Source: Rhodanobacteraceae bacterium (GTDB taxonomy: Bacteria; Pseudomonadota; Gammaproteobacteria; Xanthomonadales; Rhodanobacteraceae). Taken from it: DNA of 64,000 nt. The stretch's first letter is position 1; every line of letters begins with the position of its first letter. Both the position numbers and the translations under genes were made by a program. The stretch covers positions 548 through 64,547 of the forward strand of contig JAICJG010000001.1 in the NCBI GenBank assembly GCA_025928585.1. The letters are read 5' to 3'. The notes beneath the pieces were generated by a model. It had not been told where the DNA came from. It saw only the letters and a list, made by a program, of their open reading frames with translations, and searched no databases. This document shows, piece by piece, positions 43,711 to 46,567 of the stretch.

Positions 43711-44316
43711 TCAGTCCGTGGCAAGGGAATGCTTTTCGGGCAGGCGGGGCGTACCCTCGGGCAACCGGTCCGCGAACTCGCCGCGCAGCCGCTGCCATTC
43801 CAGTTTCAGCCACGGGGTGAAGCGTTCGGGCGTTTCGGCGATCTCGCGGTCGAGCGCTTCCGGCATCACGTAGCGCCATGCCGCAATCTCGGTCGCGTTG
43901 ACGTGCACCGGCGCGTCGGATGTGCCGACGTACACCCAGCACAGTTCCGTCTCGGAGCCGGCGTCCCCGTACTCCGCGTGGTACTGGAACTTGTAGACGA
44001 ATTCGAGCGGGCAGGTGAAACCGAGCTCCTCGCGCAGGCGGCGCCGGGTGGCGGCGACCATGTCCTCGCCGCCGCGCGGATGGCTGCAGCAGCTGTTGGC
44101 CCAATAGCCGGGCCATAGCGGCTTGCCCGTCGCGCGCTGCTGGAGCAGGAGTGCGCCCGCCGAATTGAACACGAACAGAGAGAACGCGCGATGCAGGATG
44201 CCTTTGCCCGCGTGCGCGTCGGCCTTGTTGGCGTGGCCGATCTCGCGGTCGGCGGCATCCACCAGGATCAGCCGCTCGGAATCGAACGACACCACGCGAT
44301 CATCGTGCTCAGCCAA
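43711..44316 (-). CDS. idi: Isopentenyl-diphosphate delta-isomerase, type 1 (Nudix)
   Basis: Contains HRAFSLFVFNSAGALLLQQRATGKPLWPGYWANSCCSHP.GGE...RRRLREELG, with the catalytic Cys and Glu blocks. The TTG start at 44316 overlaps the upstream stop by 8 nt, and later in-frame GTG starts are possible. Confidence 0.88.
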   Translation of the reverse strand: MAEHDDRVVSFDSERLILVDAADREIGHANKADAHAGKGILHRAFSLFVFNSAGALLLQQRATGKPLWPGYWANSCCSHPRGGEDMVAATRRRLREELGFTCPLEFVYKFQYHAEYGDAGSETELCWVYVGTSDAPVHVNATEIAAWRYVMPEALDREIAETPERFTPWLKLEWQRLRGEFADRLPEGTPRLPEKHSLATD

Positions 44317-46567
44317 TGTTCGACTCCATCGCCTGGTAGCCGGCCTGCTGCAGTGCGCGCACGACCCGGCCGGGGTCGTCCGGGCACAGCGCGATCATCG
44401 CGCCGCCGCCGCCGCCGCCGGTGAGCTTCGCGCCGAGCGCGCCGTTGGCGCGCGCGACCTGGATCATCTCCTCGAGTTCCCAGCTCGACACCTGCAAGGC
44501 GTTGAGCTGTCCTTGGCAGATGTTCATCAGCTCGCCGAACTGATGCAAGTCCCACGCCTGCAGCGCCTTGATACCCTGCATCGCCAGCGCGTCGATTTCG
44601 TCGAAGATCCGCTCGTAGAGCTTGCGGTTGCGTTGCCACGCCTCGCGCACGCGGCGCACGGTCTTCGCGGTCAGGCTCTCGACGCCCGAGAGACCGATCA
44701 CCACGGGCAGCGGCTTCTCGAAATGCAGCGGCTCGACCAGCGGCGGTTCGCCGCGCTGGAACAGCAGCGGCTGGCCGTAGGTCGCGACGGTGTTGTCGAT
44801 GCCCGACGGCGTCCCGTGCGCCACCCGCTCGCATTCGTAGGACAGCGCGCAGACCTGCTGGTCCGTGAGGCCGAGCGCACAATGGCGATCGAGCGCGCGG
44901 ATCACCGCGACCGCGAGCGCCGCGGAACCTCCGAGGCCGTTGGCCCGCGGCAGGTTCGGGTAGACCTGGATCCGCAGCGGCCGGTTCGCGAGTTCGAGTC
45001 TCGCGAGGATCAGCTCCAGCGACTGCAGCAGCGATCCCGGGTGCTTGGTTCCCGGCACCAGGCGCTGCTCGACGCCCCAGCGCGGGATGATGAGCTGGGT
45101 GCCGTCCTTCGATTCCTCGGCGCGGGCGCGGATCGCCATCGGTACCGGCACCGCGATCGCGTGGCGGCCGTACACCACCGCGTGCTCGCCCAGAAGGATC
45201 GCCTTGCCGTAACCGGTCGCGTATTCGGCTTCGTCCACCGGTTCGAAACCGTGGGCCACGGTCTTGGCTTCCGGCTGCGCCTGCTCCTTCACCTCGGCGA
45301 TGATCTCCTTGGCCTTCCAGACCTTGATCTCACCGCTGTCGAGCAGTCGTTCGACCACGGTATCGAAGATTTCCGGCGTGGCGCCGGCGGTCGCCGCGAC
45401 GCTGCGCGCGTGCAGCGTCATGTGGCCCTGCTGGATGCCATCGGTCACGAGCGCCCGCAATGCCGAGAAGTTCTGCGCGAGCCCGACCGCACCCATGATC
45501 TCGGCGAGTTCGCGCGCGCTTCCGGCCTTGAGCAGGCGGAGATTCAGTGCCACGGTGGCATTCGATTGCAGGTTGCCGCCGATCGTGCCGACCTTCATCG
45601 GCATCTCGATGTTGCCGACCAGGTTACCGGCGTCGTCCTTGTACCAGCGGGTCAGCGAGGTGTAGTGCTCGCCGCGCGCGGCATAGGCGTGTGCCGCGGC
45701 TTCGAGCGCGCGCCAGTCGTTGCCGGTCGCGAGCGCGACCGCGTCGACGCCGTTCATGATGCCCTTGTTGTGGGTGGCGGCGCGGTAGGGATCGCACACC
45801 GCGAGGTCGTTCGCGAGGATGATGCCGTCGCGCACCTGTTCACCGTCGTAGCCGTTGCCCGCGAGGAGCTTCGTCGGGATCACGGCCTTGGCCCATACCA
45901 GCGCCCGATCGGTGAGGTTGGAAAGGATCCGGAGGAACACCTTGCCGCCGGTGATGCCTTCGACCAGGGGCGCCACGCCTTCGCACATGGTGTTGACCAT
46001 GTTGGCGCCCATCGCATCGCAGGTGTTGACCAGCAGGTGCAGCACCACCATGTCGCGGCGGCCGTCGGCCGCAGGGTGGATGCGCACCTCGATGTCGCGC
46101 GCACCGCCGCCGCGCGCGACCATCTTGGGATGGAGGCTGTTGGCGAGGTTCAGGATTTCCTGCTTGCGTTGCAGCAGGGCATTCTGGGCTGCGGCGGAGT
46201 TGTCGATGTCGACGATCTGCACCTGGCCGATCAGGATCGGTTCGGTAGAGCGGGTGGTGAATCCGCCCGCCGCCCGCACCACTTTGGCGGCGGAGGACAG
46301 CGCGGCCACGATCGAGGGCTCCTCGACCACCAGCGGCACCACGCGGTCCTTGCCGTTGACCAGGAAGTTGAGGCCGAGCCCGAGCGGCAGCCCCATCACC
46401 CCGATCACGTTCTCGATCATCTTGTCGGCGCGCGCGACCGTGAGCGTGTGGCCGCCGCTCAGGAGGGTCTGGAAATCCTCGCGCGAAAGCATGCCGCGTT
46501 CGCGCACGAGGTTGACGCGTTCGGGCACCGACAATTTGTAGAAGCCCGGCATTCTCGACTGGTCCAT
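44309..46567 (-). CDS. mvaA-mvk: Bifunctional class II HMG-CoA reductase :: mevalonate kinase fusion protein
   Basis: It is a single uninterrupted frame. The N-terminal ~430 aa carry MIENVIGVMGLPLG, EEPSIVAA, DAMGANMVNT, ATHNKGIMNG and GTIGG (class II HMGR). A 22-aa linker (KEQAQPEAKTVAHGFEPVDEAEY) follows. Then comes GYGKAILLGEHAVVYG, ANGLGGSAALAVAV (GHMP motif) and KLTGGGGGG (mevalonate kinase). The ATG at 46567 is preceded by AAGGAA. Confidence 0.88.
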   Translation of the reverse strand: MDQSRMPGFYKLSVPERVNLVRERGMLSREDFQTLLSGGHTLTVARADKMIENVIGVMGLPLGLGLNFLVNGKDRVVPLVVEEPSIVAALSSAAKVVRAAGGFTTRSTEPILIGQVQIVDIDNSAAAQNALLQRKQEILNLANSLHPKMVARGGGARDIEVRIHPAADGRRDMVVLHLLVNTCDAMGANMVNTMCEGVAPLVEGITGGKVFLRILSNLTDRALVWAKAVIPTKLLAGNGYDGEQVRDGIILANDLAVCDPYRAATHNKGIMNGVDAVALATGNDWRALEAAAHAYAARGEHYTSLTRWYKDDAGNLVGNIEMPMKVGTIGGNLQSNATVALNLRLLKAGSARELAEIMGAVGLAQNFSALRALVTDGIQQGHMTLHARSVAATAGATPEIFDTVVERLLDSGEIKVWKAKEIIAEVKEQAQPEAKTVAHGFEPVDEAEYATGYGKAILLGEHAVVYGRHAIAVPVPMAIRARAEESKDGTQLIIPRWGVEQRLVPGTKHPGSLLQSLELILARLELANRPLRIQVYPNLPRANGLGGSAALAVAVIRALDRHCALGLTDQQVCALSYECERVAHGTPSGIDNTVATYGQPLLFQRGEPPLVEPLHFEKPLPVVIGLSGVESLTAKTVRRVREAWQRNRKLYERIFDEIDALAMQGIKALQAWDLHQFGELMNICQGQLNALQVSSWELEEMIQVARANGALGAKLTGGGGGGAMIALCPDDPGRVVRALQQAGYQAMESNIG

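What the first reader, a model, noticed from the sequence alone, without database searches (positions are those of the whole stretch)
44309..46567. Single-ORF fusion of class II HMG-CoA reductase and mevalonate kinase
Seen: one 752-codon frame has no internal stop. Residues 1 to about 430 carry the class II HMGR signatures (ENVIG, DAMGANMVNT, ATHNKGIMNG, GTIGG). The HMGR C-terminal flap-like helix is EIFDTVVERLLDSGEIKVWKAKEII. A 22-residue linker follows at about 45224-45289. After it comes a complete GHMP mevalonate kinase (GKAILLGEHAVVYG, GLGGSAALAVAV, KLTGGGGGG). Established: the known bacterial MVA fusion is thiolase-HMGR (MvaE of enterococci). I am not aware of a characterised HMGR-MVK fusion, though I cannot search. 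Inference: fusing consecutive steps would channel mevalonate. It would also commit a 'degradative-type' class II reductase to the biosynthetic direction.
Basis: partly seen in the sequence, partly recalled or inferred. Interest (0 to 1): 0.75.

Follow-up and report, generated by a model that had tools for sequence, protein, structure and literature searches.

The report
Natural HMG-CoA reductase–mevalonate kinase fusion enzyme
One gene in this soil-type gammaproteobacterium really does encode two consecutive mevalonate-pathway enzymes as a single protein; the fusion is conserved in many related bacteria, sits inside a hopanoid-lipid operon, and appears never to have been studied biochemically.

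Summary
A 752-codon ORF (ATG 46567 to stop 44309-44311) encodes a complete class II HMG-CoA reductase (residues 1 to about 429). A disordered linker of about 20 residues follows, then a complete mevalonate kinase (about 450-752).

It is not a sequencing artefact. All 80 best species-level genome loci keep both halves in one frame with no stop, including three cultured isolates. The linker varies freely (18-31 aa), while every catalytic residue of both halves is conserved in 94-95 of 95 fusion proteins. A 757-aa orthologue was detected in a Wenzhouxiangella proteome.

The gene sits in a conserved module, MVD-PMK-[HMGR-MVK]-IDI. Here that module lies inside a hopanoid operon. Teredinibacter turnerae has the same operon with hmgr and mvk as separate genes overlapping by 4 nt, which shows how the fusion could arise.

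The "degradative" label comes only from the name of the annotation model. The cofactor helix is NADPH-type (H146...R152, no Asp146), and the neighbours are biosynthetic.

The architecture is common in public databases but named only as a reductase. I found no paper describing it. Channelling of mevalonate is plausible but untested. It is a new variant of a known kind, of moderate interest.

The parts
44309..46567 (-). Whole fusion gene: 752 codons plus the TGA stop at 44309-44311.
46573..46578 (-). Shine-Dalgarno-like AAGGAA, 5 nt upstream of the ATG at 46567 and 6 nt after the PMK stop codon.
   Evidence: Read directly from the sequence.
45281..46567 (-). Class II HMG-CoA reductase domain, residues 1 to about 429. 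It includes the three-helix C-terminal flap (helices 377-393, 398-411, 416-429) that carries the catalytic His382.
   Evidence: Aligns to P. mevalonii HMGR 1qax residues 5-423, E 1e-120. E83, K268, N272, D284 and H382 are conserved in 94-95 of 95 fusion proteins. Secondary structure from the AlphaFold model.
46111..46131 (-). Cofactor helix motif H146-P-K-M-V-A-R152, NADPH-type.
   Evidence: Alignment to NADH enzymes (1qax, 6dio, 6p7k: Asp146...Leu152) and to S. pneumoniae 5wpj (Y-P-S-I-V-K-R). Motif rule quoted from PMC13488460. H146 is present in 86/95 and R152 in 91/95 fusion proteins.
45221..45280 (-). Interdomain linker, residues about 430-449 (QAQPEAKTVAHGFEPVDEAE...). It is predicted disordered and is hypervariable between species.
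   Evidence: pLDDT about 30. Length 18-31 aa and unrelated sequences across 80 loci.
44312..45220 (-). Mevalonate kinase (GHMP) domain, residues about 450-752.
   Evidence: TIGR00549, 237 bits, above cut-off. PDB mevalonate kinases 2hfs, 2x7i and 6mde. K455, E461, H462, S548, E580, S588 and D591 are conserved in 95/95 fusion proteins.
43711..44316 (-). Type 1 isopentenyl-diphosphate isomerase. Its TTG start overlaps the last 8 nt of the fusion gene.
46585..47607 (-). GHMP kinase, inferred to be phosphomevalonate kinase. Its ATG overlaps the MVD stop by 1 nt.
   Evidence: It scores below the NCBIfam cut-offs for PMK, so the assignment rests on its position in the module and on the best family match.
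47607..48701 (-). Diphosphomevalonate decarboxylase. The start is uncertain: 48638, 48653 or 48701.
   Evidence: TIGR01240, 281 bits; candidate starts.
48728..53517 (-). Upstream part of the same operon: squalene synthase-like gene (52378-53517), squalene-hopene cyclase (50441-52375), HpnG-like nucleosidase (49732-50460) and HpnA-like epimerase (48728-49747).
38722..43290 (-). Downstream part of the same operon: HpnH-like radical SAM gene (42160-43290), GT2 glycosyltransferase (41022-42131), acyltransferase (39720-41021) and a membrane protein of the LPG-synthase-TM family (38722-39924).
53634..54563 (+). Divergently transcribed polyprenyl (farnesyl) diphosphate synthase.

Best explanation
The gene encodes a genuine bifunctional biosynthetic enzyme.

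Inferred mechanism:
- The N-terminal class II HMG-CoA reductase reduces HMG-CoA to mevalonate, most likely with NADPH.
- The C-terminal mevalonate kinase, tethered by a flexible linker of about 20 residues, phosphorylates mevalonate with ATP to mevalonate 5-phosphate.
- PMK, MVD and IDI, encoded by tightly coupled neighbouring genes, complete the route to IPP and DMAPP.
- In this organism that supply feeds the squalene and hopanoid enzymes encoded in the same operon.
- HMG-CoA comes from an HMG-CoA synthase encoded elsewhere in the genome, as in related Rhodanobacteraceae.

Likely origin: loss of the stop or frame boundary between translationally coupled, overlapping hmgr and mvk genes, as still seen in Teredinibacter turnerae.

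Likely benefit: fixed 1:1 stoichiometry and proximity. The freely diffusible mevalonate is trapped as a phosphate ester as soon as it is made, which pulls a reversible reductase forward.

Shown here: the domain content, intact catalytic residues, conservation of the fusion, gene context, linker disorder, and expression of an orthologue. Inferred: both activities, the NADPH preference, and any kinetic advantage.
For: Domains and boundaries:
- Both halves match their families above curated cut-offs and align end to end with solved enzymes.
- The AlphaFold model gives two confident domains joined by a linker with pLDDT below 50. pTM is 0.47, meaning no fixed interdomain packing is predicted.

Catalytic residues:
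- E83, K268, N272, D284 and H382 correspond to P. mevalonii E83, K267, N271, D283 and H381.
- The kinase residues are K455, E461, H462, S548, E580, S588 and D591.
- All are present in 94-95 of 95 fusion proteins spanning 36-97% identity.

The fusion is conserved:
- 80/80 species-level loci are in frame with no stop, with a linker of 18-31 aa and no conserved sequence.
- These include Rhodanobacter lindaniclasticus DSM 17932, Wenzhouxiangella sediminis XDB06 and Wenzhouxiangella sp. EGI_FJ10305.

Context:
- The module MVD-PMK-fusion-IDI is conserved: 68/80 loci have all three partners, and the shortfalls sit mostly on truncated contigs.
- 32 of 46 loci with adequate flanks have hopanoid or squalene genes adjacent.
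- T. turnerae has the same synteny with separate hmgr (432 aa) and mvk (319 aa) overlapping in ATGA.

Other points:
- Cofactor helix: NADPH-type H...R, with no Asp146.
- Substrate supply: HMG-CoA synthase is widespread in Rhodanobacteraceae but unlinked.
- Expression: in Wenzhouxiangella AB-CW3 the 757-aa orthologue abcw3|01229 was detected by proteomics in all three growth conditions. It lies between MVD, a GHMP kinase and IDI (PMC7691419, Table S1).
Against: - No enzyme assay exists for any member, so both activities, the cofactor choice and any channelling are inferred.
- Position 3 of the cofactor motif is Lys, Asn or Arg rather than the canonical Ser, so the NADPH call is not a perfect motif match.
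- A long disordered linker gives proximity, but there is no evidence of a protected path for mevalonate.
- HMG-CoA synthase was not found in this 64-kb window, so its presence in this particular genome is assumed from relatives.
- The proteomic record does not show that peptides came from both halves, or that the protein is uncleaved.
Confidence: 0.85

Rival explanations
1. Assembly or sequencing artefact. Two adjacent genes, hmgr and mvk, were merged by a lost stop codon or a frameshift error near 45200-45300.
For: An unfused relative exists in which the two genes overlap by only 4 nt (T. turnerae). A single-base error could therefore mimic a fusion.
Against: 80/80 independent species-level assemblies keep one frame with no stop across the junction. 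They include isolate genomes, and a separate nanopore+Illumina complete genome of a cultured Wenzhouxiangella strain encodes a 757-aa orthologue. All 120 best 90%-identity clusters from NCBI, JGI, ENA and Logan are about 750 aa with all three Pfam domains.
Confidence: 0.01
2. Catabolic enzyme. As the database name 'degradative' suggests, the reductase half oxidises mevalonate to HMG-CoA, as in Pseudomonas mevalonii. The kinase half would then be regulatory or vestigial.
For: The best NCBIfam model is TIGR00532, 'HMG-CoA reductase, degradative'. The closest solved structure is the catabolic P. mevalonii enzyme.
Against: The NADH-type Asp146...Leu152 motif is absent and the NADPH-type H...R motif is present and conserved. 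The neighbours are PMK, MVD, IDI and squalene/hopanoid enzymes, with no HMG-CoA lyase. The kinase catalytic residues are invariant in 95/95 proteins. Wenzhouxiangella is listed as a mevalonate-only genus (PMC13001223 Table S1), so the pathway there must be biosynthetic.
Confidence: 0.04
3. The single ORF yields separate enzymes in vivo, through internal translation initiation in the linker or proteolytic cleavage. The fusion would then be only a gene-level feature.
For: The linker DNA has in-frame GTG codons (V427, V438, V445) with AAGGAG/GGAAG-like sequences upstream. The linker is disordered and so accessible to proteases.
Against: Linker sequences are hypervariable, and many orthologues have no in-frame start-type residue or conserved Shine-Dalgarno sequence there. 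No conserved internal start therefore exists. Retention of the fusion across identities from 36 to 97% argues that the covalent link itself is selected or at least tolerated.
Confidence: 0.07
4. One half is a pseudo-enzyme. For example, a kinase-dead MVK domain could act as a mevalonate or isoprenoid-diphosphate sensor that regulates the reductase, while the standalone GHMP kinase upstream is the real mevalonate kinase.
For: The upstream GHMP kinase scores similarly and weakly on PMK and MVK models: 78 against 74 bits, both below cut-off.
Against: The fused domain passes the mevalonate-kinase equivalog cut-off, 237 against 163 bits. It keeps the motif I Lys, the motif II Ser, the catalytic Asp and motif III in 95/95 sequences. 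The pathway needs two kinases and only two GHMP kinases are present in the module.
Confidence: 0.03

Closest known systems
MvaE of Enterococcus faecalis (acetoacetyl-CoA thiolase / class II HMG-CoA reductase)
   Same: A natural bifunctional mevalonate-pathway protein built on a class II HMGR. It is NADPH-dependent and biosynthetic.
   Different: In MvaE the partner is an N-terminal thiolase, which catalyses a non-adjacent step. Here the partner is a C-terminal mevalonate kinase, which catalyses the very next step and is attached to the catalytic flap domain. No thiolase domain is present.
Teredinibacter turnerae hmgr + mvk (ACR12724.1 and its downstream gene), locus L082
   Same: The HMGR is 56% identical. 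The operon has the same order: SQS-hpnG-hpnA-MVD-PMK-HMGR-MVK-IDI-hpnH.
   Different: There are two separate genes, 432 and 319 aa, overlapping in ATGA. HMG-CoA synthase and FPP synthase are in the same cluster, whereas they are unlinked or divergent in the window.
Pseudomonas mevalonii HMG-CoA reductase (PDB 1QAX), the class II archetype
   Same: It aligns over residues 5-423 with E 1e-120. The catalytic Glu, Lys, Asn, Asp and His are identical, and so is the three-helix flap.
   Different: The P. mevalonii enzyme is NAD-dependent, catabolic and single-domain, with cofactor helix D146...L152. The window protein has H146...R152 and a fused kinase.
Streptomyces mevalonate-pathway clusters placed next to terpenoid biosynthetic clusters (own knowledge; dual-pathway bacteria are also discussed in PMC13001223)
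   Same: A mevalonate module is embedded in or beside the genes for a specific isoprenoid product, in lineages that can also carry the MEP pathway. Rhodanobacter is listed as having both.
   Different: The Streptomyces genes are all separate, use a type 2 IDI and include HMGS. Here HMGR and MVK are fused, the IDI is type 1, HMGS is elsewhere, and the product is a hopanoid membrane lipid rather than a secondary metabolite.
IspDF fusion of the MEP pathway
   Same: A widespread natural fusion of two isoprenoid-precursor enzymes in proteobacteria (PMC13001223).
   Different: IspDF joins non-consecutive steps and has been characterised biochemically and structurally. HMGR-MVK joins consecutive steps and has not been characterised.

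Membership tests
Class II HMG-CoA reductase (PF00368 / TIGR00532) | Full-length match to the family profile above the curated cut-off. | tested here: met
   PF00368 358 bits (cut-off 27); TIGR00532 423 bits (cut-off 260). The class I model TIGR00533 gives only 51 bits against a cut-off of 442.
Class II HMG-CoA reductase (PF00368 / TIGR00532) | Catalytic Glu83, Lys267, Asn271, Asp283 and His381 (P. mevalonii numbering). | tested here: met
   Residue-by-residue alignment to 1qax. The residues are conserved in 94-95/95 fusion proteins.
Class II HMG-CoA reductase (PF00368 / TIGR00532) | C-terminal three-helix flap domain carrying the catalytic His. | tested here: met
   Alignment runs to 1qax residue 423 of 428. 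The AlphaFold model has helices at 377-393, 398-411 and 416-429.
NADPH-preferring (biosynthetic) class II HMGR subgroup | Cofactor-helix motif (H/Y)xSxxxR, as opposed to Dx(V/L)xxxL in NADH enzymes (Miller & Kung, as quoted in PMC13488460). | tested here: inconclusive
   The window has H-P-K-M-V-A-R. Positions 1 and 7 fit the NADPH motif, but position 3 is Lys rather than Ser. The NADH motif is clearly not met: there is no Asp146 and no Leu152. The cofactor itself cannot be measured with these tools.
Catabolic mvaAB-type HMGR (Pseudomonas mevalonii) | NAD-type Asp146 and linkage to HMG-CoA lyase. | tested here: not met
   Residue 146 is His. The neighbours are PMK, MVD, IDI and hopanoid genes, and no lyase was found in the scanned ORFs.
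Mevalonate kinase (GHMP superfamily, TIGR00549) | Equivalog profile above cut-off, plus GHMP N-terminal and C-terminal domains. | tested here: met
   TIGR00549 237 bits (cut-off 163), residues 454-727; PF00288 and PF08544. PDB mevalonate kinases match at E 1e-41 to 1e-17.
Mevalonate kinase (GHMP superfamily, TIGR00549) | Motif I Lys (GKxILxGEH), motif II (GLGGSAA), catalytic Asp (SGxD) and motif III (TGGGGGG). | tested here: met
   K455, E461, H462, S548, E580, S588 and D591 are invariant in 95/95. The assignment of catalytic roles rests on my knowledge of the rat and bacterial MVK literature.
MvaE-type bifunctional thiolase-HMGR | N-terminal thiolase domain fused to HMGR. | tested here: not met
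   There is no thiolase Pfam hit, HMGR starts at residue 1, and the extra domain is C-terminal and of the GHMP type.
Bifunctional HMGR/MVK (this architecture) | Both activities in one polypeptide: HMG-CoA + NAD(P)H + ATP gives mevalonate 5-phosphate. | not testable with these tools
   Only sequence, context and proteomic detection of an orthologue are available.
Hopanoid biosynthesis (hpn) gene cluster | Squalene-hopene cyclase together with HpnH-type radical SAM (Radical_SAM + DUF3463), HpnG-type nucleosidase and squalene synthase-like genes in one cluster. | tested here: met
   Pfam hits at 50441-52375, 42160-43290, 49732-50460 and 52378-53517. Production of hopanoids was not tested.

The most novel reading that the evidence does not exclude
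The covalent link may be more than co-expression. The kinase hangs from the C-terminus of the mobile flap that carries catalytic His382, and the kinase's own catalytic Lys455 lies within about 6 residues of the linker. The two active sites could therefore be mechanically or allosterically coupled. For example, kinase occupancy or feedback by isoprenoid diphosphates could gate flap closure.

Dimeric HMGR and dimeric MVK domains could also assemble into a higher-order mevalonate 'metabolon'. That assembly would act as a dedicated, regulated entry valve for hopanoid synthesis in bacteria that also carry the MEP pathway.

The repeated, apparently independent C-terminal fusions of class II HMGR to MVK, MVK-IDI, FPP synthase, squalene synthase and HpnA-like enzymes would then reflect a general property of the flap terminus as a docking point.
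Probability: 0.12. Interest if true: 0.65.

Novelty: new variant of a known kind. Interest (0 to 1): 0.42.

Why it matters
- **Enzymology.** If both activities are confirmed, this would be a second natural bifunctional architecture built on class II HMGR, after MvaE. It would be the first to join consecutive steps.
- **Metabolic engineering.** It offers a ready-made, evolution-tested design for engineers who currently build artificial mevalonate-pathway fusions.
- **Structural mechanism.** It is a natural test of how much freedom the catalytic flap domain needs.
- **Annotation.** Hundreds of database entries named only 'HMG-CoA reductase, degradative' hide a mevalonate kinase. Pathway-completeness surveys could therefore wrongly score these genomes as lacking MVK.
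- **Physiology.** The mevalonate module sits inside a hopanoid operon, in a family listed as having both MEP and MVA pathways. This suggests a dedicated precursor supply for a membrane lipid, which can be tested genetically in cultured Rhodanobacter and Wenzhouxiangella.

Tried and rejected
- **Plus-strand reading.** Translating the stated coordinates on the plus strand gives an open but meaningless high-GC antisense frame. The gene is on the minus strand.
- **Leucine catabolism as the HMG-CoA source.** No HMG-CoA synthase was seen in the window or beside most modules. I therefore considered that HMG-CoA might be drawn from leucine catabolism. I dropped this as the main reading after finding a dedicated HMGS in two loci (L022, L064). 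HMGS is also widespread but unlinked in Rhodanobacteraceae. It is still not excluded for this particular genome.
- **GHMP-HMGR proteins.** I first took the 730-770 aa proteins with HMGR at their C-terminus to be MvaE-like thiolase fusions. BLAST against the window proteins shows the three checked (P0151, P0157, P0173) carry an N-terminal GHMP kinase instead.
- **Literature.** Six full-text searches returned engineering papers, HBV-integration papers and genome reports, but no natural HMGR-MVK fusion. Hoshino & Gaucher 2018 only say that fused partners were trimmed from their alignments. Lombard & Moreira 2011 is not held. Absence from this library does not prove absence from the literature.
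- **Single versus multiple origins.** A neighbour-joining tree of HMGR domains was meant to decide this. It gave a patchy pattern: 16 'pure' fused clades, and one main clade of 19-23 leaves with T. turnerae nested inside. It is too weak (50% representatives, fragments, midpoint root) to decide between repeated fusion and fission.
- **Internal start codons.** I looked for a conserved internal start or Shine-Dalgarno sequence in the linker. In-frame GTGs exist in this window, but nothing is conserved across orthologues.

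
Full report
**1. The observation**

The stated interval holds a single long ORF, but on the minus strand. The ORF listing reports 44309..46588 (-), 759 aa from a TTG. It lies 17 nt after the stop of the upstream gene and 5 nt after an AAGGAA Shine-Dalgarno-like element.

- Pfam finds HMG-CoA_red at residues 14-387 (E 8e-107), GHMP_kinases_N at 520-597 and GHMP_kinases_C at 666-744.
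- NCBIfam finds TIGR00532 at 1-387 (423 bits, cut-off 260) and the mevalonate-kinase equivalog TIGR00549 at 454-727 (237 bits, cut-off 163).
- Against the PDB, residues 4-424 align with residues 5-423 of the 428-residue P. mevalonii reductase. Residues 451-739 align with Leishmania, Staphylococcus and Methanosarcina mevalonate kinases.
- No solved chain covers both halves.

The plus-strand translation of the same DNA is an open but meaningless high-GC antisense frame.

**2. Not an artefact**

A scan of one genome per GTDB species returned 585 relatives. In all 80 best loci the two halves are in the same frame with no stop between them. These loci include cultured isolates: Rhodanobacter lindaniclasticus DSM 17932, Wenzhouxiangella sediminis XDB06 and Wenzhouxiangella sp. 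EGI_FJ10305.

The linker ranges from 18 to 31 residues and shares no conserved sequence. The flanking domains remain 60-98% identical to the window's halves. This is the signature of a selected two-domain protein joined by a flexible tether.

- All 120 best 90%-identity protein clusters, from NCBI, JGI, ENA and Logan, are about 750 aa with all three Pfam domains.
- In an exhaustive search of 1.84 billion 50%-identity representatives, 22 of the best 150 are HMGR-MVK or HMGR-MVK-IDI, down to 36% identity.
- Named members come from Rhodanobacteraceae, Oleiagrimonas, Wenzhouxiangella, Arenicellales, Salinisphaerales, Natronospirales and Woeseiaceae, plus a Desulfobacterales MAG.
- In the complete genome of Wenzhouxiangella AB-CW3 the orthologue (abcw3|01229, 757 aa) lies between MVD, a GHMP kinase and IDI. 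It was detected in the proteome under all three growth conditions (PMC7691419 Table S1).

**3. Anatomy**

*Reductase half.* The catalytic Glu83, Lys268, Asn272, Asp284 and His382 correspond to P. mevalonii E83, K267, N271, D283 and H381. They are present in 94-95 of 95 fusion proteins. The C-terminal three-helix flap that carries the catalytic His is complete (helices 377-393, 398-411, 416-429).

*Linker.* The AlphaFold model has mean pLDDT 79.7 but pTM only 0.47. pLDDT is about 30 for residues 431-446. The model therefore shows two confident domains and a disordered linker, with no predicted fixed packing.

*Kinase half.* It begins with a beta strand at residue 450. The motif I lysine (K455) is therefore only a few residues from the tether. 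K455, E461, H462, S548, E580, S588, D591 and the glycine-rich motif III are conserved in 95/95 or nearly so.

Both ends of the linker thus sit next to an active-site element. That statement follows from the sequence. Any functional coupling is inference.

**4. Direction and cofactor**

'Degradative' is only the name of TIGR00532. A 2026 Protein Science paper quotes Miller & Kung's rule. NADH-dependent class II enzymes carry Dx(V/L)xxxL on the cofactor helix. NADPH-dependent ones carry (H/Y)xSxxxR (PMC13488460).

| Enzyme | Cofactor-helix residues (from position 146) |
|---|---|
| P. mevalonii, Delftia, Burkholderia | D...L |
| S. pneumoniae | Y-P-S-I-V-K-R |
| Window protein | H146-P-K-M-V-A-R152 |

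H146 is found in 86/95 fusion proteins and R152 in 91/95. Position 3 is Lys, Asn or Arg rather than Ser.

The NADH motif is therefore clearly absent and the NADPH motif is largely present. Together with the neighbours (below), this points to the biosynthetic direction.

**5. Context**

The gene is the third of a tightly packed module on the minus strand.

- MVD runs from 47607 to about 48650.
- A GHMP kinase, taken as PMK, runs from 46585 to 47607. Its ATG overlaps the MVD stop by 1 nt.
- The fusion follows. A type 1 IDI then starts at a TTG (44316) that overlaps the fusion's last 8 nt.

The module lies inside a hopanoid operon.

- Upstream are a squalene synthase-like gene, squalene-hopene cyclase, an HpnG-like nucleosidase and an HpnA-like epimerase.
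- Downstream are an HpnH-like radical SAM enzyme, a GT2 glycosyltransferase, an acyltransferase and a membrane protein.
- An FPP synthase is transcribed divergently.

The MVD-PMK-fusion-IDI module recurs in the related loci. Of 46 loci with adequate flanks, 32 have hopanoid or squalene genes adjacent. The 14 without are mostly Wenzhouxiangella and Rhodanobacter sensu stricto.

HMG-CoA synthase is absent from the scanned ORFs of the window and from 78 of the 80 loci. For this test I used the S. aureus HMGS sequence, verified as identical to PDB 1XPK chain A. It is present near the module in L022 and L064. It is widespread but unlinked in Rhodanobacteraceae genomes.

A 2026 review's table lists Rhodanobacter as having both MEP and MVA pathways, and Wenzhouxiangella, Woeseia and Dyella caseinilytica as MVA-only. 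It does not mention the fusion (PMC13001223).

**6. Origin**

The closest unfused reductase in the representative search (P0143, 56% identical) is from Teredinibacter turnerae. Its locus has the same order: SQS-hpnG-hpnA-MVD-PMK-HMGR-MVK-IDI-hpnH, followed by HMGS and FPP synthase.

There hmgr (432 aa) and mvk (319 aa) overlap in the sequence TCATGA. The two proteins sum to 751 residues, against 752 for the fusion. The linker corresponds to the reductase's C-terminal tail plus the kinase's N-terminal tail. A one-base frame change at such a junction would produce the fusion.

A rough neighbour-joining tree places T. turnerae inside the main fused clade and scatters other fused lineages. The number of fusion and fission events therefore stays unresolved.

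**7. Mechanism proposed**

*Shown:* a conserved, expressed, two-domain protein with intact catalytic machinery in both halves, in a biosynthetic operon.

*Inferred:* NADPH-dependent reduction of HMG-CoA, followed by ATP-dependent phosphorylation of mevalonate on the tethered domain.

The benefit would be fixed stoichiometry and immediate trapping of a diffusible, re-oxidisable intermediate. The long, variable, disordered linker argues for proximity rather than a structured channel. The minimum observed length of 18 residues is consistent with a need to leave the flap free to close.

**8. Comparison with the known**

The protein works like MvaE in being a bifunctional protein built on class II HMGR. 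It fails the defining MvaE feature, because it has no thiolase domain and its partner is C-terminal. Each half is an ordinary member of its enzyme family.

The architecture is present in public databases, including RefSeq and UniRef entries, but is named only as a reductase. Within the held literature nothing describes or characterises it. Hoshino & Gaucher (2018) only note that fused partners were trimmed from their alignments.

**9. Verdict**

This is a real and conserved HMGR-MVK fusion that is widespread in Gammaproteobacteria and, as far as the held literature shows, biochemically uncharacterised.

It is a new variant of a known kind, not a new kind of system. Fusions of pathway neighbours are common, and this one is already abundant in databases. 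The most useful leads are the embedding in a hopanoid operon and the wider family of C-terminal HMGR fusions noted below.

Noticed in passing
window 38722-54563 (minus-strand operon plus the divergent FPP synthase): The lower mevalonate pathway (MVD, PMK, HMGR-MVK, IDI) is inserted in the middle of a hopanoid operon, between hpnA and hpnH. The same arrangement occurs in 32 of 46 related loci with adequate flanks and, unfused, in Teredinibacter turnerae. This suggests a dedicated precursor supply for hopanoids in a family listed as having both MEP and MVA pathways.
   Followed up: partly
proteins P0122, P0123, P0110, P0145, P0151, P0157, P0173, P0159, P0161, P0162, P0163, P0169, P0178, P0184, P0198, P0200, P0215: Class II HMGR is a hub for other natural fusions:
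- HMGR-MVK-IDI (952 and 928 aa; one from a Desulfobacterales MAG).
- PMK-like-HMGR-MVK (1131 aa).
- GHMP kinase-HMGR, and MVK-HMGR in the reverse order.
- HMGR-FPP synthase, HMGR-squalene synthase and HMGR-FPPS-SQS (1162 and 1453 aa).
- HMGR-SQS-HpnA-like epimerase (1253 aa; 13 contigs).
- HMGR-epimerase and HMGR-cyclase-like.
Some may be gene-calling artefacts. None was checked at DNA level.
   Followed up: partly
window 44309-44316; compare P0122 and P0123: The IDI gene's TTG start overlaps the last 8 nt of the fusion gene. MVD and PMK overlap by 1 nt at 47607. The module therefore looks translationally coupled throughout. The MVK-IDI junction is itself fused in other lineages.
   Followed up: partly
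L022 20047-21582 (-), L064 15307-16782 (+), L081 8001-9476, L082 12151-13758: HMG-CoA synthase is not in the scanned ORFs of the 64-kb window, nor within 10 kb of the module in 78 of 80 species. It is adjacent in two MAGs and in T. turnerae. In a 3.3-Mb Rhodanobacteraceae contig it is a lone gene among housekeeping genes. The upper and lower halves of the pathway are therefore usually unlinked. No thiolase was looked for.
   Followed up: partly
window 46585-47607 (-): The GHMP kinase taken as phosphomevalonate kinase scores far below the NCBIfam cut-offs for every PMK model: 78 bits against 166 for TIGR01220. It scores almost the same on the MVK model (74 bits). It is only 33-77% identical across the related loci. 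It is a divergent kinase whose substrate is assigned here by position only.
   Followed up: no
L028, L038, L077; protein P0067: Loci 74-84% identical to the window's fusion halves carry MAG titles from unrelated phyla (Gemmatimonadaceae, Casimicrobiaceae, Thermoanaerobaculia, Dermatophilaceae). This is more likely binning contamination than recent transfer, but it was not examined.
   Followed up: no
window 44123-46744 (+) and 39876-42170 (+): Very long ORFs (873 and 764 codons) lie antisense to the real genes. These are typical high-GC shadow frames and could mislead a reader working from sequence alone.
   Followed up: yes
window 57845-61429 (+): A molybdopterin oxidoreductase about 1000 aa long with N-terminal 2Fe-2S and 4Fe-4S domains (formate dehydrogenase alpha-like), followed by a DUF1641 protein. 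It is unrelated to the finding.
   Followed up: no
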